Of a DNA stretch of 64,000 nucleotides, positions 5,164 through 64,000 are shown piece after piece. Position 1 is the stretch's first letter. Every line of letters starts with the position of its first letter. The notes below the pieces were generated by a model. It saw nothing but the letters and a program-made list of their open reading frames with translations, searched no databases and was not told the DNA's origin. The position numbers and the translations under genes are program-made. The stretch is from Malacoraja senta (Eukaryota), in contig CM075989.1 of assembly GCA_038087875.1 (NCBI GenBank), forward strand, positions 25,236,001 through 25,300,000, given 5' to 3'.

Positions 5164-5794
5164 GTATTTCTCAGAACTGTAGTATTTGACGGCCACAGTC
5201 TATATATGGATGAACTGGGAGCAGAACTTTTATCAAAGTCCCCACCTACCTACCTGTTCCAATATAATAGTTAACACAGAGGTTATGGGGAGAAGGCAGG
5301 AGAATGGGGTTAGGAGGGAGAGATAGATCAGCCACGATTGAATGGCGGAGTAGACTGGTTGGGCCGAATGGCCTAATTCTGCTCCTATCACTTATGACCA
5401 TGTGAATAATGATATGCAAGTATATAACTTTAATTCTCCTGCATCCCTGGAATGAAACAATGACATTCTCATTTGCCGGAGCTTTAAGGGCACATTAATT
5501 AATGCAACAACAACAAATAAATATACAATAATCAATTTACTCAGAGCTGCTGTAGATTTGGAAGCAACAGCAGGTGAAGATTAGCAAGAGAAAACACTGA
5601 TTGGCTCTAGCCCAAGAGGGAGCAGAGAAGTGAGTCAAAGCGGGGAAAACAGTTGAAAACTGAGGAATTTGGATTGTAAATTGGTAAATTAGGCAATTTA
5701 TCAGTCAATATAAGCAAGACTGCTCTTAGGGAGCGGCCTTGTGAGGGAAGTGTGAGTCTTTGGCTCGAGAGTCTTCGGCGAGGAGGCTGAGGAG

Positions 5795-6766
5795 ATGAGG
5801 CTACGCAAAACACTGCAGAGGGAGAGACGAAAGAAGGAGATGTCAGGCAAGCTGATTCAGTGTGATGCTTGCAGTATGTGGGAGGTCAAGGACACTGCTG
5901 GTGCCTCTGGCTGCTACAAATGTGACAAGTGCATCCAGGTACAGATCCTGAAGGACCGTGTTGGGGAACTGGAGAAGCAAGTGGATGACCTCAGGTTTGT
6001 CCGAGAAACGGAGTCGTTCCTCGACAAGTCCTACAGTAAGATTGTTACACCTAAGGTACTGGAAGAGAGAAGGTGGGAGACAGTGAGAAAGGGAGGGAAG
6101 CATGGAATGCAAACGTCCCCGGGTGTTGTACCTGTTGTGAACAGGTTCACCCACTTAGAAGCTGTCGGGACAGAAGACGTTTTAACACTGAGCGGCAGAC
6201 TGGCTTGCGATGCGAATAGGGCTGTTGAGCCAAAACCAAAAAGGCCAAAGTCAGGCAACGCCATTGTAGTGGGAGACTCCATTGTGAGAGGTACGGACAG
6301 GGGTTTCTGCGGCAACAGACGGGATTCGAGGATGGTGTGCTGCCTTCCTGGTGCCAGGATCCAGGATGTCACGGACAGAGTGCAGAAAATCCTCAAGGGC
6401 GAAAGTGAACAGCCGGAAGTGGTGGTGCATGTCGGCACAAACGATGTCGGAAAGAAGGGGATGAATAATCTGCAGCGTGACTTTAGAGAGCTCGGAAAAA
6501 TGCTGAAAAGCAGGACCTCCAGGGTTGTTATCTCCGGTTTGCTTCCAGTTCCTCGTGCTGACGAGAGCAGGAACAGGGAGATACGGGACCTGAATGTGTG
6601 GCTGAGGAACTGGTGCACGGGGCAGGGATTTAGATTCTTAGATCACTGGGATCTGTTTTGGAGTGAAAGGGAACTGTACAAAAGGGACGGATTGCATCTT
6701 AACAGGTGGGGGACCAGCATTCGGGCAGGCAGGTTTGCCACTGCTACACGGGTGGTTTTAAACTGA
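5795..6766 (+). CDS. CR1 ORF1p: CxxC/CxxC zinc finger, coiled coil, SGNH esterase domain
   Basis: CDAC...CDKC, heptad LKDRVGELEKQVDDL, SGNH blocks GDSIV, PGA, HVGTND, DGLHL; alternative ATG at 5840. Confidence 0.9.
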   Translation: MRLRKTLQRERRKKEMSGKLIQCDACSMWEVKDTAGASGCYKCDKCIQVQILKDRVGELEKQVDDLRFVRETESFLDKSYSKIVTPKVLEERRWETVRKGGKHGMQTSPGVVPVVNRFTHLEAVGTEDVLTLSGRLACDANRAVEPKPKRPKSGNAIVVGDSIVRGTDRGFCGNRRDSRMVCCLPGARIQDVTDRVQKILKGESEQPEVVVHVGTNDVGKKGMNNLQRDFRELGKMLKSRTSRVVISGLLPVPRADESRNREIRDLNVWLRNWCTGQGFRFLDHWDLFWSERELYKRDGLHLNRWGTSIRAGRFATATRVVLN

Positions 6767-9603
6767 ATAAGGTGGGTGGGGTGTCAAATGGGATAGTTGA
6801 GGATGGAGTTAAAGGGAAAGGGTTTCTTAAATGTGTGGGCGTAGAGACAGAGGGGTGTAAAATGAGGGTAGAAGCAATCGGTAGCAAGGTGAAAAGTAAA
6901 AGTGGCAGGCAGACAAATCCAGGGCAAAAATCAAAAAGGGCCAATTTTCAACATAATTGTATAAGGGGTAAGAGTGTTGTAAAAACAAGCCTGAAGGCTT
7001 TGTGTCTCAATGCAAGGAGCATTTGTAATAAGGTGGATGAGTTGAATGTGCTGGTAGCTATTAATGACTATGATATAGTTGGGATCACGGAGACATGGCT
7101 CCAGGGTGACCAAGGCTGGGAGCTGAACATCCAGGGATATTCAATATTCAGGAGGGATAGACAGAAAGGGAAAGGAGGTGGGGTAGCGTTGCTAGTTAGA
7201 GAGCAGATTAACGCAATAGAAAGGAAGGACATTAGCTTGGAGGATGCGGAATCGATATGGGTAGAGCTGCGAAACACTAAGGGGCAGAAAACGCTAGTGG
7301 GAGTTGTGTACAGGCCACCTAACAGTAGTAGTGGAGTTGGGGATGTCTTCAAACAGGAAATTAGAAATGCATGCAACAAAGGTAAAACAGTTATAATGGG
7401 TGACTTCAATCTACATATAGATTGGGTGAATCAAATTGGCAAGGGTGCTGAGGAAGAGGATTTCTTGCAACGTATGCGGGATAGTTTTCTAAACCAACAT
7501 GTAGAGGAATCAACGAGAGAGCAGGCTATTCTAGATTGGGTATTGAGTAATGAGGAAGGGTTAGTTAGCAGTCTTGTTGTGCGTGGCCCCTTGGGCAAGA
7601 GTGACCATAATATGGTTGAGTTATTCATTAGGATGGAGAGTGACATTGTTAATTCAGAAACAAGGGTCCTGAACTTAAAGAAAGGTAACTTTGAGGGTAT
7701 AAGAAGTGAATTGCCCAAGATAGACTGGCAATTGATTCTTAATGGGTTGACGGTAGGTATGCAATGGAAGGCATTTAAAGACTGCATGGATGAACTACAA
7801 CAATTGTTCATCCCAGTTTGGCAAAAGAATAAATCAGGGAAGGTAGTGCATCCATGGATAACAAGGGAAATCAGGGATAGTATCAAAACAAAAGATGAAG
7901 CGTACAAATTAGCCAGAAAAAGCAGCCTACCAGAGGACTGGGAGAAATTCAGAGTCCAGCAGAGGAGGACAAAGGGCTTAATTAGGAAAGGGAAAATAGA
8001 TTATGAAACAAAACTGGCAGTGAACATAAAAACTGACTGCAAAAGCTTTTATAGATATGTGAAGAGAAAAAGATTAGTTAAAACAAATGTAGGTCCCTTG
8101 CAGTCAGAAACAGGTGAATTGATCATGGGGAACAAGGACATGGCAGTCCAATTGAATAACTACTTTGGTTCTGTCTTCACTAAGGAAGACATAAATAATC
8201 TGCCGGAAATAGCAGGGGACCGGAGGTCAAATGAGATGGAGGAACTGAGTGAAATCCAGGTTAGCCGGGAAGTGGTGTTAGGTAAATTGAATGGATTAAA
8301 GGCCGATAAATCCCCAGGGCCAGATAGGCTGCATCCCAGAGTACTTAAGGAAGTAGCCCCAGAAATAGTGGATGCATTAGTGATAATTTTTCAAAACTCT
8401 TTAGATTCTGGAGTAGTTCCTGAGGATTGGAGGGTAGCTAATGTAACCCCACTTTTTAAGAAGGGAGGGAGAGAGAAAACGGGGAATTACAGACCAGTTA
8501 GTCTAACGTCGGTAGTGGGGAAACTGCTAGAATCATTTATTAAAGATGGGATAGCAGCACATTTGGAAAGTGGTGAAATCATTGGACAAAGTGAGCATGG
8601 ATTTATGAAAGGTAAATCATGTCTGACGAATCTTATAGAATTTTTCGAGGTTGTAACTAGTAGAATGGATAAGGGAGAACCAGTGGATGTGTTATATCTG
8701 GACTTTCAGAAGGCTTTCGACAAGGTCCCACATAAGAGATTAGTATACAAACTTAAAGCACACGGTATTGGGGGTTCAGTATTGATGTGGATAGAGAACT
8801 GGCTGGCAAACAGGAAGCAAAGAGTAGGAGTAAACGGGTCCTTTTCACAATGGCAGGCTGCGACTAGTGGGGTACCGCAAGGCTCAGTGCTGGGACCCCA
8901 GCTATTTACGATATATATTAATGATTTGGACGAGGGAATTGAATGCAACATCTCCAAGTTTGCGGATGACACGAAGCTGGGGGGCAGTGTTAGCTGTGAG
9001 GAGGATGCTCGGAGGCTGCAATGTGACTTGGATAGGCTGGGTGAGTGGGCAAATGCATGGCAGATGCAGTATAATGTGGATAAATGTGAGGTTATCCACT
9101 TTGGTGGCAAAAACAGGAAAGTAGACTATTATCTGAATGGTGGCCGATTAGGAAAAGGGGAGATGCAACGAGACCTGGGTGTCATGGTACACCAGTCATT
9201 AAAAGTAGGCATGCAGGTGCAGCAGGCAGTGAAGAAGGCGAATGGTATGTTAGCATTCATAGCAAAAGGATTTGAGTATAGGAGCAGGGAGGTTCTACTG
9301 CAGTTGTACAGGGTCTTGGTGAGACCACACCTGGAGTATTGCGTACAGTTTTGGTCTCCTAATCTGAGGAAAGACATTCTTGCCATAGAGGGAGTACAGA
9401 GAAGGTTCACCAGACTGATTCCTGGGATGTCAGGACTTTCATATGAAGAAAGACTGGATAGACTCGGTTTGTACTCGCTAGAATTTAGAAGATTGAGGGG
9501 GGATCTTATAGAAACGTACAAAATTCTTAAGGGGTTGGACAGGCTAGATGTAGGAAGATTGTTCCCAATGTTGGGGAAGTCCAGAACAAGGGGTCACAGT
9601 TAA
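6757..9603 (+). CDS. CR1 ORF2p: AP endonuclease plus reverse transcriptase (C-terminal 65 aa displaced by a 1-nt deletion; start uncertain)
   Basis: EN motifs NARS, TETW, YRPP, GDFN, SDHN; RT motifs YLDFQKAFDKV, GVPQGSVLGP, KFADDTK; first in-frame ATG at 6862; start given at the slippery site. Confidence 0.9.
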   Translation, partial: FKLNKVGGVSNGIVEDGVKGKGFLKCVGVETEGCKMRVEAIGSKVKSKSGRQTNPGQKSKRANFQHNCIRGKSVVKTSLKALCLNARSICNKVDELNVLVAINDYDIVGITETWLQGDQGWELNIQGYSIFRRDRQKGKGGGVALLVREQINAIERKDISLEDAESIWVELRNTKGQKTLVGVVYRPPNSSSGVGDVFKQEIRNACNKGKTVIMGDFNLHIDWVNQIGKGAEEEDFLQRMRDSFLNQHVEESTREQAILDWVLSNEEGLVSSLVVRGPLGKSDHNMVELFIRMESDIVNSETRVLNLKKGNFEGIRSELPKIDWQLILNGLTVGMQWKAFKDCMDELQQLFIPVWQKNKSGKVVHPWITREIRDSIKTKDEAYKLARKSSLPEDWEKFRVQQRRTKGLIRKGKIDYETKLAVNIKTDCKSFYRYVKRKRLVKTNVGPLQSETGELIMGNKDMAVQLNNYFGSVFTKEDINNLPEIAGDRRSNEMEELSEIQVSREVVLGKLNGLKADKSPGPDRLHPRVLKEVAPEIVDALVIIFQNSLDSGVVPEDWRVANVTPLFKKGGREKTGNYRPVSLTSVVGKLLESFIKDGIAAHLESGEIIGQSEHGFMKGKSCLTNLIEFFEVVTSRMDKGEPVDVLYLDFQKAFDKVPHKRLVYKLKAHGIGGSVLMWIENWLANRKQRVGVNGSFSQWQAATSGVPQGSVLGPQLFTIYINDLDEGIECNISKFADDTKLGGSVSCEEDARRLQCDLDRLGEWANAWQMQYNVDKCEVIHFGGKNRKVDYYLNGGRLGKGEMQRDLGVMVHQSLKVGMQVQQAVKKANGMLAFIAKGFEYRSREVLLQLYRVLVRPHLEYCVQFWSPNLRKDILAIEGVQRRFTRLIPGMSGLSYEERLDRLGLYSLEFRRLRGDLIETYKILKGLDRLDVGRLFPMLGKSRTRGHS

Positions 9604-10128
9604 GGATAAGGGGGAAATCTTTTAGGACCGAGATGAGGAAAACATTTTTCACACAGAGAGTGGTGAATCTGTGGAATTCTCTGCCACAGAAGGTAGTTGA
9701 GGCCAGTTCATTGGCTATATTTAAGAGGGAGTTAGATGTGGCCCTTGTGGCTAAAGGGATCAGGGGGTATGGAGAGAAAGCAGGTACAGGATACTGAGTT
9801 GGATGATCAGCCATGATCATATCGAATGGCGGTGCAGGCTCGAAGGGCCGAATGGCCTACTCCTGCACCTATTTTCTATGTTTCTATGATGCAATGAATC
9901 AGTAACACAAGGTTACCAGACTATTACAATACAAAATGCAACCAAAAAGCCAAGAGCTGTTTGCTGCTGATGTTAGTTGTGTTCAACACCCTGATTGTTG
10001 CTGGGAAGAAGCTGTTCATGTAACCTGGAGGTCACGGTTGTGAATGCTTCAATTATTCTTTATTGTCACGTGTACCGAGGTACAGTGAATCGCTTCTGTT
10101 CTGCACACACCCGGGAGTACCATGCAGC

Positions 10129-10414
10129 GCACCTGATGTAGGCAGCACACCTGATGTAGGCAGCCGCACCTGATGTAGGCAGCCGCACCTGATGTAGGCA
10201 GCCGCACCTGATGTAGGCAGTCGCACCTGATGTGGGCAGCACACCAGGTGCAGGCAGTCGCACCTGATGTAGGCAGTCGCACCTGATGTAGGCAGTCGCA
10301 CCTGATGTAGGCAGCACACCAGGTGCAGGCAGTCGCACCTGATGCAGGCAGCCGCACCTGATGCAGGCAGCCGCACCTGATGTAGGCAGCCGCACCTGAT
10401 GTAGGCAGTCGCAC
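10129..10414. repeat. 19-bp minisatellite
   Basis: Unit cacctgatgtaggcagccg, about 15 copies. Confidence 0.9.
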
Positions 10415-10928
10415 CAATGGACATGTGTCTGGCGTCAACAAAGTTACAAAGAACATTATGTCTACAATTGTGTCCCCACAGGTGGCATCACCCCCCTCCG
10501 GGCCCACCCTCCGTCCGTTCTCCCTTAGTTCTGGGCGGCCCCACCCCCACTGGGTCGCCCTCGCTCTCACCCCCCCCCCCCCCCCCCCCCTCGCTCCAGA
10601 TCGACACGCGTGTTGTATTAATCCTTCCCATCTGCAAGTCGGGTCACTTGCCGTTGCAGTTCTCCTGCATGACAGTAGATGGAGCTCCAGTCCAGCCTGC
10701 ACCAACACACCTGATGTCCCATTCCCACTCCATTCCCATCCCATTTCCACCCCATTCCCATCGTGTCCATGTCTACCTGATGCCCCGTCTCCATGTCCAG
10801 CCCCTGAACCCACCCACACATCTGACATTGCCCTGCATTGCTGATAGCAACCAGTGCATACTCTGATGTTAGTTTGAGCTGTGATCTTGCATCTAAACAA
10901 TCTCAGAGCTGTGTTTTATTTATACCAG

Positions 10929-17507: not shown

Positions 17508-18390
17508 AAATAGACAATAGACAATAGGTGCAGGAGTAGGCCATTCGGCCCTTCGAGCCAGCACCACCATTCAATGTGATCATGGCTGATCATCCCCAAT
17601 CAGTACCCCGTTCCGGCCTTCTCCCCATATCCCCTGACTCCGCTATTTTTAAGAGCCCCATCTAGCTCTCTCTTGAAAGTATCCAGAGAACCTGCCTCCA
17701 CCGTCCTCTGAGGCAGAGAATTCCACAGACTCACAACTCTCTGTGAGAAAAAGTGTTTCCTCGTCTCCGTTCTAAATGGCTTACCCCTTATTCTTAAACT
17801 GTGGCCCCTGGTTCTGGACTCCCCCAACATCGGGAACATGTTTCCTGCCGCTAGCGTGTCCAAACCCTTAACAATCTTGTATGTTTCAATAAGATTCCCT
17901 CATCCTTCTAAACTCCAGAGTGTACAAGCCCAGCCGCTCCATCCTCTCAGCATATGACAATCCCGCCATCCCGGGAATTAACCTTGTAAACCTACGCTGC
18001 ACTCCCTCAATAGCAAGAATGTCCTTCTTCAAATTAGGGGACCAAAACTGTACACAATACTCCAGGTGTGGTCTCACTAGGGCTCTGTACAACTGCAGAA
18101 GGACCTCGTTGCTCCTATACTCGACTCCTTTTGTTAAAAAGGCCAACATGCCATTGGCTTTCTTCACTGCCTGCTGTACCTGCATGCTTACTTTCATAGA
18201 CATGAACAAGGACCTCCTGATCCCGTTGTACTTCACATTTTCCCAACTTGACACCATTTAGATAATAATCTGCCTTTCTGTTTTTGATACCAAAGTGGAT
18301 AACCTCACATTTATCCACATTTAACTTCATCTGCCATGCATCTGCCCACTCCCCCAACCACCCTGCATTCCAAGTCACCCTGCATTCTCA
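17508..18390 (-). mobile_element. CR1 LINE 3' fragment
   Basis: RT C-terminus RPHLEYCVQFWSP, RTRGHSLRIRGKPFRTE...GEKAGTGY*; (TATTGTC)n tail. Confidence 0.9.
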
Positions 18391-53339: not shown

Positions 53340-55410
53340 ATAAGATCATGTAATTGGAGCAGTTAGGCCATTCGGCCCATCAAATGTACTCCGCCATTCA
53401 ATCATGGCTGATCTATCTCTCCCTCCTAGCCCCATTCTCCTGCCCTCTCCCCATAACCCGTACTAATCTACTATCTCTGCCTTAAAAATATCCACTGACG
53501 TGGCCTCCAGCCTTCTGTGGCAAAGAATTCCACAGATTCACCACCCTCTGACTAAAGAAATTCCCTCTCATCTACTTCCTAAAGGAATGTCCTTTAATTC
53601 TGAGGCTATGACCTCAAGCCCGAGACTCTCCCACAAGTGGAAACATCCTCTCCACATCCACTCTATCCAAGCCTTTCACTATCCTGTGTATTTCAATGAT
53701 GACCCCCCTCATTCTTCTAAACACCAGTGAGTACAGGCCCAGTGCTGTCAAACGCTCATCATTCCTGGGATCATTCTTGTAAACCTCCTCTGGACCCTCC
53801 CCAGAGCCAGAACATCCTTCTTCAGATATGGTGCCCAAATTTGCTCACAATATTCTAAATGCGGCCTGACCAGTGCCTTATAGAACCTCAGCATTACATC
53901 AGGTACACAAAAATGCTGGAGAAACTCAGCGGGTGCAGCAGCATCTATGGAGCGAAGGAAATAGGCAACGTTTCGGGCTGAAACCCTTCTTCAGACTGAT
54001 GGGGGAGTGGGAGGGGGCAGGGAGAAGAAAGGAAAAAGGAGGAGGAGCCCGAGGGCTGAGGGAGAGCTGGGAAGGGGAGGAGACAGCAAGGGCTAACAGA
54101 ATTGTGAGAATTCAATGTTCATGCCACCAGGATGCAGACTCCCCAAGTTGAATATGAGGTGCTGTTCCTCCAATTTCCGGTGGTGCTCACTCTGGCCATG
54201 GAGGAGGACCAGGACAGAGGTCGGATACGGAATGGGAGGGGGAGTTGAAGTGCTGAGCCACCGGGAGGTCAGGTTGGTTAATGCGGACCGAGCGGAGGTG
54301 TTCGGCGAAACGATCGCCAAATCTACGCTTGGTCTCACCGATGTAGATCAGCTGACATCTAGAGCAGCGGATGCAATAGAAAGTGCCCGGGGAGGGGGTG
54401 GTGCGGGAGGGAAGGGAAGAATTGACAAGGGAGTTACGGAGGGAGCGGTCTTTGCGGAAGGCAGACAGGGGGGGAGATGGGAAGATGTGGTGAGTGGTGG
54501 GGTCACGTTGGAGGTGGCGAAACTGACGGAGGACTATATGTTGTATGTGATGGCTAGTGGGGTGAAAGGTGAGGACTAGGGGGACTCTGCCCTTGTTGCG
54601 AGTGGGGGGATGGGGAGAGAGAGCAGTGTTACGGGGTATGGAAGAGACCCTGGTGCGAGCCTCATCTATAGTAGGGGAGGGAAACCCCCGTTCCCTGAAG
54701 AATTAGGACATTTCCGATGCCCTGGTGTGGAACACCTCATCCTGGGAGCAGATGCGGCGTAGACGGAGGAATTGGGAATAGGGGATGGAGTCCTTACAGG
54801 AAGCAGGGTGGGAAGAAGAGTGGTCTAGATAGCCATGGGAGTCAGTGGGTTTATAGTGGATGTCGGTCAGAAGTATATCACCTGCGATGGAGATAATGAG
54901 GTCAAGGAATGGTAGGGAAGTGTCGGAAATGTCCAGGTGTATTTGAGTGCCGGATGGAAGTTAGTGGTGAAGCGGATGAAGTCAGTTAGTTGTGTGTGGG
55001 TGCAGGAGGTGGCACCAAAGCAATTGTCGATGTAGCGGAGGTAGAGGTCGGGGATGGGGCCCTGGTACGCCTCGAACAAGGATTGTTCGACGTACCCGAC
55101 AAAGAACCTCCTCTCTCAGCATTACATCCCTGTTTTTGTATACAAGCCCTCTCGAAATAAATGCTAGCATTGCACTTGCTTCCTTTACTAACCGATTGCG
55201 ACTTGCAGATTAACCTTTTGGGAATCCTGCACCAGCTAAGTCCATTTGCACCTCTAATTTCTGGATTCTCTCCCCATTTAGAAAACAGTCTACACCTTTG
55301 TTCCAACTACCAAAATGCACGACTCCACACTTTACTACACTATATTCCATCTGCCACTTCTCTGCCCACTCTCCCAACCTGTCCAAGTCCTTCTGCGGAG
55401 TCCCTGTCTG
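53340..55410 (-). mobile_element. Degraded CR1 fragment interrupted by a Penelope-like insertion
   Basis: CR1 RT remnants (DLDRLGEWAEKWQMEYSVVKC, ERLTALGLYSL) on both sides of the insert. Confidence 0.8.
53901..55114 (-). mobile_element. Penelope-like element fragment (RT C-terminus plus GIY-YIG) with TSD
   Basis: YLRYIDNCFGA (YIDD-like), FHPALKYTW, KLEEQHLIFNLGSLHPGGMN; TSD ctcagcattacatc at 53887-53900 and 55115-55128. Confidence 0.85.
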
Positions 55411-57309: not shown

Positions 57310-58520
57310 AAAGAGTGATAGTGTGGAAACAGGCCCCTCCATGTATATGTCTAACTGTTTCTTAAATGCTGGGATAGTCCCTGCCTCAGCTACCTCATCT
57401 GGCAGCTTGTTCCATACAACCACAACCCTTTGTGTTAAAAAGTTACTTCTCAGACTCATATCAAATCTTTTCCCCCTTCACCTTAAACCGATGTCCTCAA
57501 TTCACCAACTCTGGGCAAGAGACTGTGTGCATCTACCCAATCTATTCCTCTCATGATTTTATACATCTCTATAAGATCACCTCTCATCTTCCTGCACTCC
57601 AAGGAATAGAGTCCCAGTCTACTCAGACCCTCTAGTCCGGGCAACATCCTCGTAAATCTTCTTTGATACCTTTCCAGCTTGACCTCTTTCCTATAGCATG
57701 GTACCCAGAACTGAACACAATACTCTAAATGCAACCTCACCAATGTCTTATACAATTGCAACATGATTTCCCAACTTTTATACGCAATATTCTGATTGAT
57801 GAAGGCCAATGTGCCAAAAGCCTTTTTGACCACCCAATGCGACTCCACCTTCAAGGAACCATGCACCTGCACGCCTAGATCCCTCTGCTCTATAACACTC
57901 CCCAGAGCCCTACCATTTACTGTGTAGGTCCTGCAATTGTTAGACGTCCCAAAATTCAACACTTCACACTTCTCTGTATTAAATTCCATCAACCATTCCT
58001 CAGCCCACCTGGCCAATCGATCATGATCCTGCTGCAATTTTTCACAACCATCTTCACTATCTGCAAAACCACCCACTTTTGTATCATCTGCAAACTTGCT
58101 AATCTTGCCTTGTATGTTCTCATTCAAATCATTGATGTAGATGACAAACAGTAACGGGCCCAGCACCGAACCCTGAGGCGCACCACTAGTCACAGGCCTC
58201 CAGTCCGAGAAGCAACCTTCCACCATCACCCTCTGCTTCCTTCCATGAAGCCAATTTTCTATCCATTGAGCTATCTCTCCTTGGATCCCATGCAATCTAA
58301 CCTTCCATAGCAGCCTACCATTCAGCACCTTGTCAAATGCTTTTCTGAAGTCCACATACACATCTACAACTCTGCTCTCATCGACCTTTTTGGTCACCTT
58401 TTTTTCAAAAACCTGAGATTTGTGAGACACAACCTCCCACTTACAAAACCATGCTGACTATCCCTAATCAGCCCTTGCCCAACTAAATGCCTATATATCC
58501 TATCCCTCAGAATATTCTCT
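57310..58520 (-). mobile_element. CR1 LINE 3' fragment (RT)
   Basis: YVDFRKAFDKV, GAPQGSVLGP, KFADDTK, RLHLEYCVQFW; internal deletions. Confidence 0.9.
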
Positions 58521-61453
58521 ATTCCATTTCTCTCAATTCTATTCCCTTTCTCAAGGGATCTAAGTTTTAGGCCCTCAAGTTAGACTATTGCGATAACTTT
58601 CATTGCTGTGCTCGTTTCCATGCTTGCTGGCCAACAAACTTGGTCCACTCTGAAGTTCACGCATTAGGTCCAACTGAGATTGTAATAATCAATACTGACA
58701 CAGTTAATCCCATGTTGGTATTAATGTCCTGGTTTCTGACAAAACTCCACCCATCCAAGCAGGTCCACTCCTACGAAGTTTAAAAATCCCAAACACTAAA
58801 TTCATTCACTTTTCTTTAATGAATGTTGTCAGCCAAGATTGGCTGTTCAATGTGCCAGGATTTGCTGTCCAGAGGCCCCCTCCGAATGCTGTTCAATGAG
58901 GCAAATTTTCAGACAGAGAAACTATTGTTTAGCTTTTAATATAAAGTGTGACAGAGCAAAACTGATATTTTAAAAGCAAATGACAATATTATATATTTAT
59001 ACACACATCAACCACATGAGGAATTTAATAAAAGTAATCAAATGAAAGTAGTAGGTTTATTCTCCCTAGGTTCAATCTTCTTCCAATTCTCAAAAATACT
59101 ACATTAGTTTCATGTTTACTTTCAAACCAGCCCAGGGGCCCGTTTCCCCAAGCATATTTTGTACAAATCAAGAACTTAAGACTGTTATTTTGCGACCACG
59201 CCTATCAAAAAATGTTGTTCAATTGGTTAATCCTCATTCTATAATTATTGAAAATGAGAACAGTTCTCAGAATCTAAAAGCAGAGAAAGGAAAATTAAAA
59301 AAAATTAAAGACCTTCTGGAGCACAAACGCTTCCAAGCTTCAATGAGCAACAGATTCTAAAAAAAAGGTCCAGAATGCAAGGGAGTCGAGGATGGCTGGG
59401 CTGAATACGACATCTCATCTAATTCTAGTTCCATACAACCCTGGTGCTAGGCAGCTCCAGAGAAAACAAGGAGACAAGACACTGGAGTTATTGGAATCTT
59501 GAGCAAAAAACACAAACATCTGGAGGAACTCAATGGGTCAGGCGTCTGTTGAGGAAATGCACAGACAATGTTGTGTCTTGACCCTTCTTCGCACTCCCTG
59601 TAGAAATAGCTTCACTGTATCCATCCTGCTGAGGTTCCCAATAGTTTGTTTAGATGAAATCAGCCCTCTTTCTACAACTCAGGGACCCTTTCTGCTCATT
59701 CTTGAGATTAAATTAATTTCAATAACAATTTTAATGAAGCTTCACTGCATTGTCCCAAATGCAGCACGCGCAAGTTCAAACTGTGTACAGTACTCCAGAG
59801 ATGTTTGCATAGAATCAAAATCCCGTAACAAGGGGTTACAAAGGGGATGGAGTACCAGTGAATGTGCCTTCCTAATTACTTGCTCTACCTGCATTCCAAA
59901 ACTTGCAGATTGAATAAATCTTAATATAGAAGACCGAAGAAAATGTACGCATTTTGATATTCTATTCCTTTTACCAAAGTGGATACACTCGCATTTCCCC
60001 TTATTATATGTCAATGCCATATTTTCACCCATTCAAGCCAAGTAACTTCCTCCTCATTCAAACCCGTGTTCCCATCTGTCACGGACGGCTGAACCCTGAA
60101 TTTGCCCTTTAGCAAATTCATTAACAGATTGAAGCACCACTACATTCTGGGGTACAACAATAATTTAACTTTTATCCACTGAATGGCCCATTTATTCCTA
60201 CCATTTTCTATTAATAACCAATCCTCTACTAATACCAATACTTTACCACTAACCAATCCTCTACTAATTCAATACTGTACCAATAACCAATCCTCTACTA
60301 ATGGTCCATTCTTTGGAAAGTGTACCAAAATGTTACACACGTGACCAATCATATTTGACCTCTTACCTTAAACAAACATTGTCAGCATAACATAACATTT
60401 TCACTTGATAAACTGAAAAATAAGAATCATACATGCAGTGAAAAACAATATACCTGTAAAGCTTTCAGAATTAGAAGAGAGGTATTCTACAGTTTTTCAT
60501 CTTTTTGGTCACACACGTAACTAAGAATTGGCCTAATACCAATACCACCTTCAATCCCCTGACATTACCTTTTACAAATACTTCTGGCATGTCAATCGTG
60601 GTATTTTTACATCCAAATCCCCACTTGCATCCACAGATGTGACAATAGTGGCTATGCTAATGAAGTAGGAACAAGGGCATATTGCAAATACTGCAACAAA
60701 CGTAGGGAAGCTTCAATTAAAATCATTAAATGATGCCAGAATGAAGCACTGGTATCAAGTACAGTGGCCAGTAAACTCAGCCTGACAAAAAGCACAACCG
60801 ATTCACTAATATTCTTCAGGAAATACCACCCTTGTCTCGTCTGACCAATGTGGTTAACTTTTAAATGCTTCTTCAATTCAGGATCACCTCAGGAGGGAAA
60901 ACAGACACCATTGTTGTCAGTGGTAGACAAAAATGCTGGAGAAACTCAGCTGGTGAGGCAGCATCTATGGAGCGAAAGAAATAGGCAACATTTTGGTCCA
61001 CGACCACAGTTGTCAGTCATGTCCATGACTCATGATCAAAATCTGTCAAGGCTTTTCATTTAATGTAACTTTGCAGACAATCTCTAGACCCTACCTGGTC
61101 ATGTTATGGTTTCATATGAACCGTTATCACTTAGCATTTTCCCGACAATCAATATTGTGCTCATCCTCCTGCAGGGTAATGCTTTCTCCTTCCTTCCATT
61201 TATGGATGGCCATCTTAGACTGCAAAATGGCAAATATACAGGGGCCTTTGACAATTTACAACAAAAGTACCAACATCTTTTAGAACCCGGATGTGCAAGT
61301 TATCACATGCAATACATCTGTCAGCCTTGGTCTCATTAGTTTATGTGGCACATTTTCTCATGATGGATTTTCATTCTTTTATTTTCCTAATTCTTGTATT
61401 GTCGTTAATCTGTTTTAAATCTTCTCGCATTTCAGCTCTAAGGGAAACACTTA

Positions 61454-63129: not shown

Positions 63130-63423
63130 TACATAGATACATAGAAATTAGGTGCAGGAGTAGGCCATTCGGCCCTTCGAGCCTGCACCGCCATTCAATA
63201 TGATCATGGCTGATCATCCAACTCAGTATCCCGTACCTGCCTTCTCTCCATACCCCCTGATCCCTTTAGCCACAAGGGCCACATCTAACTCCCTCTTAAA
63301 TATAGCCAATGAACTGGCCTCAACTACCCTCTGTGGCAGAGAGTTCCAGAGATTCACCACTCTCTGTGTGAAAGTTTTTCCTCATCTCGGTCTTAAAGGA
63401 TTTCCCCCTTATCCTTAAGCTGT
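63130..63423 (-). mobile_element. Young CR1 3' end, near-identical to 9600-9888
   Basis: The minus-strand ORF at 9527-9820 and the plus-strand ORF at 63200-63418 translate almost identically; same octamer-like tail. Confidence 0.88.
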
Positions 63424-64000
63424 GAGGTAGAGATAGCGATGTACATTTCTGCAGCAGATGGCCCACAATCTTCATGGATACCAACCTGAATTGCCAGATG
63501 TGTAGGGTCATTTCCATTTAACTCATTTGTAGTTCCACACAAATCAAAAGTGTTTCCAAAATGTTAATATGGCATGTTGTCTCAACAATAACTGTGCACT
63601 GATCACGTCTACCAATGATGTCACGAGCAAAATGGATCAGCCACAGGAGGAGATGGTCAATTGGGTTTTTACTTCATGCTCAATCATTACTTAGCGCAGG
63701 TCTAGTTTACATCTTCAACATTTAGTACTGGACCAGCTTGTCAGAGGTGGTGTTTATAGAAGCAGTATGGAGGACATTCACCGTGGAAGAACACAGGATC
63801 CATTCAACAGCAAGTGAACAGAGGTGGTGGCAAATCAGAATTTCACCTCTGGTACATCCTGCCAATGGGACGGAACACACAGGAAATGTGATGGAGTTCA
63901 GAATATTGTCCAAGGCATAATTCCCTGGGTACAACCATGTCAGCCTCAACATGTCGACACCATTGTGCCCCGAAGTCAACATTGACATACCTCTCCCAAT

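What the first reader, a model, noticed from the sequence alone, without database searches (positions are those of the whole stretch)
6751..6800. Candidate -1 programmed ribosomal frameshift fusing CR1 ORF1 to ORF2
Seen in sequence: ORF1 ends GTT TTA AAC TGA, so a T_TTA_AAC heptamer (6757-6763) sits in the correct phase directly before the stop. ORF2 is open across this site in the -1 frame (TTT AAA CTG AAT AAG...). After a 7-nt spacer come four G-runs (GG T GGG T GGGG TGTCAAAT GGG, 6771-6792). Established: U_UUA_AAC is the coronavirus-type X_XXY_YYZ slippery site, stimulators usually lie 5-9 nt downstream, and G-quadruplexes can stimulate -1 shifts. Studied LINE ORF2s (L1, SART1) are translated by reinitiation or translational coupling. 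Inference: this CR1 family may make a Gag-Pol-like ORF1-ORF2 fusion. Competing explanation: the in-frame ATG at 6862 lies before the endonuclease domain.
Basis: partly seen in the sequence, partly recalled or inferred. Interest (0 to 1): 0.75.

Follow-up and report, generated by a model that had tools for sequence, protein, structure and literature searches.

The report
Conserved ribosomal frameshift in CR1 LINEs
The first gene of this skate-type jumping gene (a CR1 LINE) ends in the slippery sequence TTTAAAC plus a stop, as it does in relatives from sharks to crocodiles, and its reverse-transcriptase gene continues one base back, so the enzyme is likely made as a retrovirus-style fusion protein by ribosomes slipping back one base.

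Summary
Observation confirmed: T_TTA_AAC (6757-6763) is in ORF1 phase before TGA, and ORF2 is open in the -1 frame. The signal is conserved. 97 of 148 ORF1 homologues with a normal C-terminus end in Leu-Asn-stop; the residue before it changes often but is almost never one that cannot end in T (1 of 29 changes). Published CR1 consensus sequences from sharks, rays, chimaera, coelacanth, bowfin, frog, lizard and crocodilians carry the heptamer at the ORF1 end, mostly followed by a G-run (read by eye). A 42%-identical relative has no ATG before the endonuclease motif. A sister clade ends in Gln-Gly-Asn or Lys-Asn, fitting G_GGA_AAC and A_AAA_AAC (protein only). Best reading: programmed -1 frameshift giving an ORF1p-ORF2p fusion (0.85); not shown experimentally. 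The four-run G-quadruplex is not supported: only two G-tracts are conserved. The 6862 ATG is kept in this family, so reinitiation is not excluded. Not found in print in my searches. This scan noted the same signal on two other genomes (e1-8041403, e1-9568866).

The parts
5840..6766 (+). CR1 ORF1 (308 aa from ATG 5840; an upstream in-frame ATG is at 5795): N-terminal Cys motif and predicted coiled coil, C-terminal SGNH/GDSL esterase; ends ...RVVLN-stop
   Evidence: Pfam PF13472 E 8e-13; homologues start near the 5840 Met; coiled coil inferred from the alignment, not computed
6757..6763 (+). Slippery heptamer T_TTA_AAC in ORF1 phase
   Evidence: conserved
6764..6766 (+). ORF1 stop codon TGA directly 3' of the heptamer (TAG or TAA in most relatives; its T is also the second base of the -1 frame Leu codon)
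6771..6792 (+). G-rich 3' element, candidate stimulator. The tracts at 6774-6781 follow a 10-nt spacer, the register of the G-run in the best-resolved relatives. The 6790-6792 tract is not evidently conserved
   Evidence: G4Hunter-type score 1.52, second highest 25-mer in the element; no G4 in the minimum-energy fold
6757..7002 (+). -1 frame linker (Lys/Gly-rich, about 82 codons) from the shift site to the start of the endonuclease (CLNARS); contains the family's in-frame ATG at 6862 and out-of-frame ATGs at 6788, 6803, 6831
6703..9603 (+). CR1 ORF2 frame: APE-type endonuclease and reverse transcriptase; ends early at 9601-9603 in this copy because of a 1-nt deletion, with the remaining C-terminal codons in another frame up to about 9797
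   Evidence: Pfam PF03372 E 6e-13, PF00078 E 2e-32
9798..9889 (+). 3' untranslated end of the element, closing in short TTCTAT-type repeats; 81% identical over 387 nt (with the ORF2 end) to another copy in the window

Best explanation
This is a near full-length CR1 LINE whose ORF1 ends in a slippery heptamer plus stop that is conserved across vertebrate CR1 lineages, and its ORF2 is likely translated by a programmed -1 ribosomal frameshift at that site, which would give an ORF1p-endonuclease-reverse transcriptase fusion like retroviral Gag-Pol. Shown: heptamer, phase, adjacent stop, -1 overlap, open linker, conservation, and the lack of a shared start codon. Inferred steps: (1) most ribosomes stop at TGA and release ORF1p; (2) a minority, with tRNA-Leu and tRNA-Asn on UUA AAC, slip back to UUU AAA and continue CUG AAU AAG, giving ...RVVLN-LNKVGG...; (3) the pause probably comes from the stop codon next in line plus the G-rich element about 10 nt downstream, which I think is more likely a protein-binding site or a weak two-tier or intermolecular quadruplex than the three-tier quadruplex proposed; (4) no protease domain was found in either ORF, so the fusion would stay joined, fixing the ORF1p:RT ratio and tying the RT into the ORF1p particle.
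For: (a) Window anatomy. (b) ORF1 C-termini: 50 of 55 close homologues and 97 of 148 in the pooled set end in Leu-Asn (the 148 are those of 223 proteins that have the DGLH-like motif and end 18-40 residues after it). (c) Codon shadow: the residue before Leu-Asn takes 13 different values, yet is E/Q/K/M/W (no codon ending in T) in 1 of 97, against 120 of 679 at positions -4 to -10. On a tree of 95 of them, 1 of 29 changes at that position lands on such a residue against 49 of 202 elsewhere (p 0.008), and C/D/F/H/N/Y versus E/Q/K/M/W is 12:1 against 24:49 (p 7e-5). (d) DNA: L002 (ORF1 42% identical) ends CAT TTA AAC TAG; ORF2 is -1 and open, and its first Met lies 8 residues after the NARS motif. 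(e) PMC13343379 Supplementary Table 2, first 400 nt of each consensus only, read by eye: 17 of 23 TTTAAACTA hits and 2 of 7 TTTAAACTG hits are ORF1 ends. Searches anchored on other motifs, not on the heptamer, gave it in 7 of 7 rows where the ORF1 end was visible (DGLH codons) and in 3 of 3 fully visible junctions found from the endonuclease side. (f) In-frame fused copies read exactly as a one-base insertion in the heptamer predicts: P0037 ...REG-FKL-N... and P0085 ...RY-LKL-V..., the latter with no Met before CLNARS. [quoted passage not shown] (h) Distance from first Met to the NARS motif varies from 12 to 96 residues in ten named or close ORF2 homologues, and the stork protein P0159 starts after the motif. 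(i) Sister subfamilies in the laid runs keep the same frame with a linker about 16 codons shorter (table 7 read by eye; P0119).
Against: No translation data of any kind. The in-frame ATG at 6862 lies 47 residues before the endonuclease motif, has A at -3, and is kept in P0118 and P0119; no variant at it is among the 40 rows shown of 328. 3 of 21 consensus junctions, and P0119, have the SART1-type TAATG stop-start at the site. No stem-loop, pseudoknot-like pairing or quadruplex was predicted 3' of the site (-4.6 kcal/mol for 67 nt), so a classical stimulator is missing. Family polymorphisms between the stop and the 6862 ATG show no clear protein-level selection (2 of 5 polymorphic sites at third positions). 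51 of the 148 ORF1 ends are not Leu-Asn, including two whole clades (9 and 11 rows) with no terminal Asn. The supplement consensus sequences are gappy, so their frames could not be followed to the endonuclease, and most were found by searching for the heptamer itself. The G_GGA_AAC and A_AAA_AAC readings rest on protein only.
Confidence: 0.85

Rival explanations
1. L1-type reinitiation: ribosomes end at the ORF1 stop, stay on the RNA and restart at the 6862 ATG (or at a non-AUG codon in families without one), making a free ORF2p.
For: ATG 6862 is in frame, upstream of the whole endonuclease and kept in the family. L1 uses reinitiation across a 63-nt spacer (PMC5972666, passages). That L1 ORF2 can be made without its AUG is recalled (Alisch 2006), not read here.
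Against: It does not explain the fixed codons, the conserved T before Leu-Asn, or the -1 overlap. Three out-of-frame ATGs come first, one with A at -3 and G at +4 (6803). L002 and P0085 have no Met before the endonuclease motif. Met position is not shared between families.
Confidence: 0.07
2. SART1-type stop-restart at the junction: the conserved bases mark a termination-reinitiation site and ORF2p starts right at the ORF1 stop in the -1 frame, from AUG where UAAUG exists and from a near-cognate codon elsewhere.
For: TAATG is present in ScyCan_CR1-1a, SquAca_CR1-17a and SquAca_CR1-6c and implied by P0119. SART1 needs a downstream RNA element (PMC5972666), as a conserved 3' G-run might be.
Against: Only 3 of 21 consensus junctions have it; 12 use TAG and 1 TGA, as does the window. 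Sister subfamilies show ATG or ATA at that place (table 7). It does not predict the X_XXY_YYZ pattern or the switch to Gln-Gly-Asn and Lys-Asn endings.
Confidence: 0.05
3. Protein constraint or another nucleic-acid role: Leu-Asn is needed at the esterase C-terminus, or the motif acts in splicing, RNA processing or polymerase slippage, and the overlap is incidental.
For: Terminal Asn is invariant in alignments A1 and A2, and the last helix of the esterase ends here.
Against: A protein need cannot fix synonymous codons (TTA AAC in every junction seen) or bias the preceding residue toward T-ending codons. One-base indels at 6757-6766 are not among the listed indels in DNA or RNA runs (12 of 13 rows shown).
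Confidence: 0.03

Closest known systems
CR1 LINE with esterase (type IV) ORF1, 'canonical CR1' of vertebrates (PMC4120745 passages; PMC13343379 section 15)
   Same: ORF1 with Cys motif and SGNH esterase, ORF2 with APE endonuclease and RT, short-repeat 3' end; closest named proteins are from the little skate (89% ORF1 identity).
   Different: Neither paper's main text contains the word frameshift; how ORF2 is translated is not addressed in the passages seen.
[quoted passage not shown]
   Same: Same heptamer, same phase, structural-type ORF upstream and polymerase ORF in the -1 frame.
   Different: Host-genome non-LTR element; no stem-loop or pseudoknot predicted; stop codon directly after the heptamer; no protease domain found to cut the fusion.
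Dictyostelium TRE5-A and TRE3-A non-LTR retrotransposons (PMC5911963 figure legend)
   Same: APE-type LINEs stated to require a -1 frameshift for ORF2 translation.
   Different: Unrelated lineage and ORF1. I saw only the review's statement, not the primary evidence or the shift site.
Arterivirus protein-stimulated frameshift (PRRSV; CCCANCUCC 11 nt 3' of the shift site; PMC5009743)
   Same: Short unstructured motif at a fixed distance of about 10 nt from the shift site.
   Different: Here the motif is G-rich and no binding protein is known; the analogy is an inference.
SART1 UAAUG coupling and L1 reinitiation (PMC5972666 passages)
   Same: Bicistronic LINE RNA; UAAUG occurs in a minority of shark CR1 subfamilies.
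   Different: Both give a separate ORF2p; neither involves a conserved slippery heptamer.

Membership tests
CR1 LINE with esterase ORF1 | ORF1 with SGNH/GDSL esterase | tested here: met
   PF13472 E 8e-13
CR1 LINE with esterase ORF1 | ORF2 with APE endonuclease followed by RT | tested here: met
   PF03372 and PF00078; weak match to L1 endonuclease structures, E 0.02
CR1 LINE with esterase ORF1 | 3' end of short tandem repeats, no poly(A) | tested here: met
   sequence at 9870-9889; the defining role of this feature is recalled
CR1 LINE with esterase ORF1 | RT phylogeny within the CR1 clade | not tested
   no RT tree built; assignment rests on domain content and on junction similarity to consensus sequences labelled CR1
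Programmed -1 ribosomal frameshift | X_XXY_YYZ heptamer in the upstream ORF's phase | tested here: met
Programmed -1 ribosomal frameshift | Downstream ORF open in the -1 frame from the heptamer | tested here: met
   window, L002, fused copies P0037 and P0085
Programmed -1 ribosomal frameshift | Conservation of the site at nucleotide level beyond protein need | tested here: met
   codon shadow; consensus DNA, by eye
Programmed -1 ribosomal frameshift | 3' stimulator (structure at 5-9 nt, or bound protein) | tested here: inconclusive
   no stable fold or G4 predicted; a run of 4 or more G starts after a 6-13 nt spacer in 16 of 21 consensus junctions, and after exactly 10 nt in six well-resolved ones and in L002
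Programmed -1 ribosomal frameshift | Transframe product shown by reporter, ribosome profiling or mass spectrometry | not testable with these tools
   none available
G-quadruplex-stimulated frameshift (PMC3919603) | Four G3 tracts beginning 6-8 nt after the heptamer | tested here: not met
   window copy has GG, GGG, GGGG, GGG; relatives conserve two tracts; ViennaRNA with G4 allowed predicts none
SART1-type UAAUG coupling | Overlapping stop-start UAAUG | tested here: not met
   window has TGAAT; present in 3 of 21 consensus junctions

The most novel reading that the evidence does not exclude
A -1 frameshift is the ancestral way esterase-ORF1 CR1 LINEs make their reverse transcriptase, kept from a pre-vertebrate ancestor and switched between U_UUA_AAC, G_GGA_AAC and A_AAA_AAC in sister lineages. 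The product is an uncleaved ORF1p-EN-RT fusion, and the shift is driven by a protein (a host G-tract binder or ORF1p itself) that binds the G-run 10 nt downstream, which would make it a protein-stimulated, possibly self-regulating frameshift in the dominant LINE of most vertebrates.
Probability: 0.3. Interest if true: 0.92.

Novelty: new variant of a known kind. Interest (0 to 1): 0.8.

Why it matters
CR1-group elements are the dominant retrotransposons in most vertebrate species (PMC13343379 abstract), and how their ORF2 is translated is not addressed in the papers I read. The studied LINE models (L1, SART1) make a separate ORF2p by reinitiation. A conserved -1 frameshift would add a third route, put a Gag-Pol-like fusion in a vertebrate LINE, explain why bird- and reptile-type ORF2 predictions start at a Met inside the endonuclease, change which copies count as intact, and offer a natural vertebrate frameshift signal with an unstructured G-rich stimulator. 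A 150-200 nt reporter tests it directly.

Tried and rejected
No whole genome is held for this window, so copies could not be aligned directly; one read-laying run served instead (4 of 21 listed runs). It shows no variant at 6757-6766 among the 40 best-supported rows of 328, but with 38 positions listed over 701 nt that is expected by chance about half the time, so I do not count it. The poly(A) run X21 has reads on both strands and says nothing about translation. Scans for junction DNA: metagenome contigs gave 5 loci, of which only L002 is of this lineage; L003 and L004 (ORF1 ends ...SKH-stop) and L005, L006 lack the signal and are distant, 27-36%. Genome contigs gave 2 bacterial loci, not examined further. 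Viral contigs gave nothing useful; the heptamer-plus-G-run pattern hit 3 loci with no CR1 protein match, taken as chance. Plasmid and phage collections: no match. Local RNA structure and a long-range partner for the G-run: nothing convincing; best duplexes are G-U rich and had no shuffle control. Three-tier G-quadruplex as the conserved stimulator: rejected as unsupported. The tree is the quick tree; the careful search did not finish. Literature: searches found no paper describing CR1 frameshifting; the one paper with all terms (PMC11835228, passages) refers to ALV gag-pol. Older CR1 papers in subscription journals and Repbase reports are outside the library and may mention the overlap.
Full report
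Observation. The window holds a near full-length LINE on the + strand. ORF1 is open from 5756 to 6766 and ORF2 from 6703 to 9603. ORF1 (308 aa from ATG 5840) carries an SGNH esterase and ORF2 an APE endonuclease and a reverse transcriptase. The closest named proteins are from the little skate, so the host is a skate-like cartilaginous fish (inference). ORF1 ends GTT TTA AAC TGA; 6757-6763 is TTTAAAC in X_XXY_YYZ phase, and ORF2 crosses it in the -1 frame. Canonical heptamers in phase are rare here: 2 in 309 ORF1 codons, 0 in 967 ORF2 codons. The frame stays open for the 32 codons before the first in-frame ATG (6862), as 5.7% of shuffles do. Three out-of-frame ATGs precede that ATG. This copy is probably dead: a 1-nt deletion near 9601, seen against a second copy in the window, ends ORF2 early.

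Protein-level conservation. I pooled 84 homologues of ORF1 and 150 representatives at 50% identity, 223 distinct proteins. 161 have the DGLH-like esterase motif and 148 end 18-40 residues after it. 97 of these 148 end in Leu-Asn (50 of 55 in the close set), including named proteins from rays, sharks, coelacanth, turtle, frog and monitor lizard. The residue before Leu-Asn supplies the first T of the heptamer through its third codon base. It takes 13 different values, yet is E, Q, K, M or W in only 1 of 97, against 120 of 679 at positions -4 to -10. Because the sequences are related I recounted on a tree of 95 of them: 1 of 29 changes at this position lands on such a residue, against 49 of 202 at the others (p 0.008); the ratio of pyrimidine-ending to purine-ending two-codon residues is 12:1 against 24:49 (p 7e-5). 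Selection therefore acts on the nucleotide, not only on the peptide. On the quick tree (C-terminal tail left out), 73 of 89 rows of the clade holding the window's relatives end in Leu-Asn; 9 of the 16 exceptions form one long-branch group with no terminal Asn, which I take for L2-type esterases without having tested it. In the other main clade of unnamed proteins, 22 of 57 end in Leu-Asn, an 11-row group has no signal, and an 18-row group has 8 endings in Gln-Gly-Asn and 2 in Lys-Asn. Those fit G_GGA_AAC and A_AAA_AAC, which PMC5009743 names with U_UUA_AAC among the most shifty heptamers (passages). I could not get their DNA.

DNA-level conservation. L002, a metagenome contig whose ORF1 is 42% identical, ends CAT TTA AAC TAG; its ORF2 is in the -1 frame, open, and has its first Met 8 residues after the NARS motif at the start of the endonuclease. 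That this Asn is the conserved catalytic-site residue of APE-type endonucleases (L1 N14) is recalled; one search gave only a weak alignment. Supplementary Table 2 of PMC13343379 lists CR1-group consensus sequences; the tool shows the first 400 nt of each, and I read them by eye. 17 of 23 TTTAAACTA hits and 2 of 7 TTTAAACTG hits are ORF1 ends, from alligator, crocodile, bearded dragon, bullfrog, coelacanth, bowfin, a halosaur, elephant shark, stingray, sawfish, catshark and dogfish, going by the row labels; the other hits lie in 5' regions or in L2 and Rex1 rows. Those searches were conditioned on the heptamer, so I also searched from the esterase motif (7 of 7 rows with a visible ORF1 end had it) and from the endonuclease start (3 of 3 fully visible junctions, plus one row cut inside the heptamer). 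Of 21 distinct junction rows, 12 have TAG, 6 TAA, 1 TGA and 2 are too gappy. A run of 4 or more G starts after a 6-13 nt spacer in 16 of 21, and after exactly 10 nt in six well-resolved rows and in L002. These consensus rows have gaps, so I could not follow their frames to the endonuclease.

Start codons. No Met position is shared between families: the first Met lies 12 to 96 residues before the NARS motif in ten close ORF2 homologues, and after it in the stork protein P0159 and in the bearded dragon consensus. Two database proteins are in-frame ORF1-ORF2 fusions that read as a one-base insertion in the heptamer predicts: P0037 from a stingray (...REG-FKL-N...) and unnamed P0085 (...RY-LKL-V..., no Met before CLNARS). 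They are probably mutated copies or annotation products, but they show the -1 frame is open from the site. Against the frameshift reading, the window's own family keeps ATG 6862 (P0118, P0119), and 3 of 21 consensus junctions have a TAATG stop-start.

Within the family. Contigs of three DNA-type runs and reads of one RNA run were laid on 6500-7200. T6756 varies to C in about 39% of depth in one run, changing the residue before Leu-Asn from Val to Ala while the heptamer's first T stays. T6773 is G in about 99% of depth, so the family's first G-run is longer than in this copy. None of the listed substitutions between the stop and 6862 makes a stop in the ORF2 frame, but only 2 of 5 polymorphic sites are at third positions, which is uninformative. 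Frame-breaking deletions there are rare (for example 1 nt at 6770: depth 47 of 825,245 in X1, 3 of 51 reads in X21). Loose ends at 6843 show sister subfamilies that read Ile- or Met-Trp-Gln-Gly-Asp-Gly in the same frame, with a linker about 16 codons shorter (by eye; agrees with P0119). Only 40 of 328 substitution rows were shown.

Stimulator. Folding the 67-197 nt after the heptamer gave no stable local structure and no quadruplex when quadruplexes were allowed. PMC3919603 (passages) shows that four-G3 quadruplexes 6-8 nt after UUUAAAC give up to about 7% frameshifting in vitro. Here only two tracts are conserved, mostly at 10 nt. That spacing recalls the C-rich motif 11 nt after the PRRSV shift site, which binds a protein complex (PMC5009743). 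I therefore favour a protein-bound or weakly folded G-rich element acting with the adjacent stop codon; this step is the least certain.

Mechanism. Most ribosomes would stop and release ORF1p. A minority would slip from UUA AAC to UUU AAA and read on, giving ...RVVLN-LNKVGG..., a Lys/Gly-rich linker, then endonuclease and RT (about 1,250 aa in this copy). Pfam finds no protease, so the fusion would remain joined. I put this at 0.85, L1-type reinitiation at 0.07, stop-restart coupling at 0.05 and non-translational explanations at 0.03. Reinitiation at 6862 could also run beside frameshifting in this family.

Comparison and novelty. The element is an ordinary esterase-ORF1 CR1 (PMC4120745 passages; PMC13343379 section 15 and passages). 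Neither main text contains the word frameshift. The frameshifting review PMC5009743 (passages from the first 300,000 of 449,034 characters) has no mention of CR1 and describes L1 as not using this route. L1 and SART1 use reinitiation (PMC5972666 passages). The nearest precedent is the statement that Dictyostelium TRE5-A and TRE3-A need a -1 frameshift (PMC5911963 figure legend; primary papers not seen; PMC5006619 passages added nothing). Eight searches found no report for CR1; older subscription papers and Repbase are not covered. Two earlier notes of this scan describe the same signal on other genomes; they are unchecked and I do not count them as evidence, though one gave me the TRE lead. 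Verdict: real, conserved, most likely a programmed -1 frameshift; a new variant of a known mechanism in a major vertebrate transposon family, awaiting a reporter test.

Noticed in passing
P0276, P0281, P0282, P0285, P0287, P0290, P0344, P0353; P0328, P0363: Unnamed ORF1 esterases ending Gln-Gly-Asn-stop (8) or Lys-Asn-stop (2), fitting the alternative slippery heptamers G_GGA_AAC and A_AAA_AAC; no DNA obtained.
   Followed up: partly
P0301, P0304, P0351, P0375: In the same clade some ORF1s end ...FFR...FFH or ...GFLGRV, which could hide a U-rich shift site such as U_UUU_UUA; unverified.
   Followed up: no
window 9595-9797: 1-nt deletion in a T-run near 9601 ends ORF2 about 63 codons early in this copy, compared with the copy at 17510-18359 (-).
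   Followed up: yes
P0013 and P0073: Proteins labelled Pseudomonas aeruginosa SGNH hydrolase and Tanacetum hypothetical protein are vertebrate-type CR1 ORF1 or ORF1/ORF2 sequences, probably contamination in the databases.
   Followed up: no
window 5326-5388, 17510-18359 (-), 53481-53900 (-), 55114-55395 (-), 57383-58522 (-), 63132-63425 (-): Older or 5'-truncated CR1-like fragments; none reaches the ORF1/ORF2 junction.
   Followed up: partly
window 10124-10415: 19-bp tandem repeat, 15.6 copies, 89% matches, about 230 nt after the element's 3' end.
   Followed up: no
PMC13343379 Supplementary Table 2, row AldAff_Crack-2: A consensus labelled Crack carries an esterase-type ORF1 end with the heptamer and stop, although the paper reports no ORF1 for vertebrate Crack elements; possibly mislabelled.
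   Followed up: no
PMC13343379 Supplementary Table 2, rows SquAca_CR1-18 and SquAca_CR1-3: TTTAAACTA also occurs, followed by a G-rich stretch, in the 5' untranslated region of two dogfish CR1 families; role unknown.
   Followed up: no
P0029, P0067, P0068, P0070, P0091, P0093: CR1 ORF1 pieces are merged into host gene models (ribosomal protein S24, TMEM204, NCOA5, collagen XVI, mesothelin); probably annotation artefacts or exonisation.
   Followed up: no
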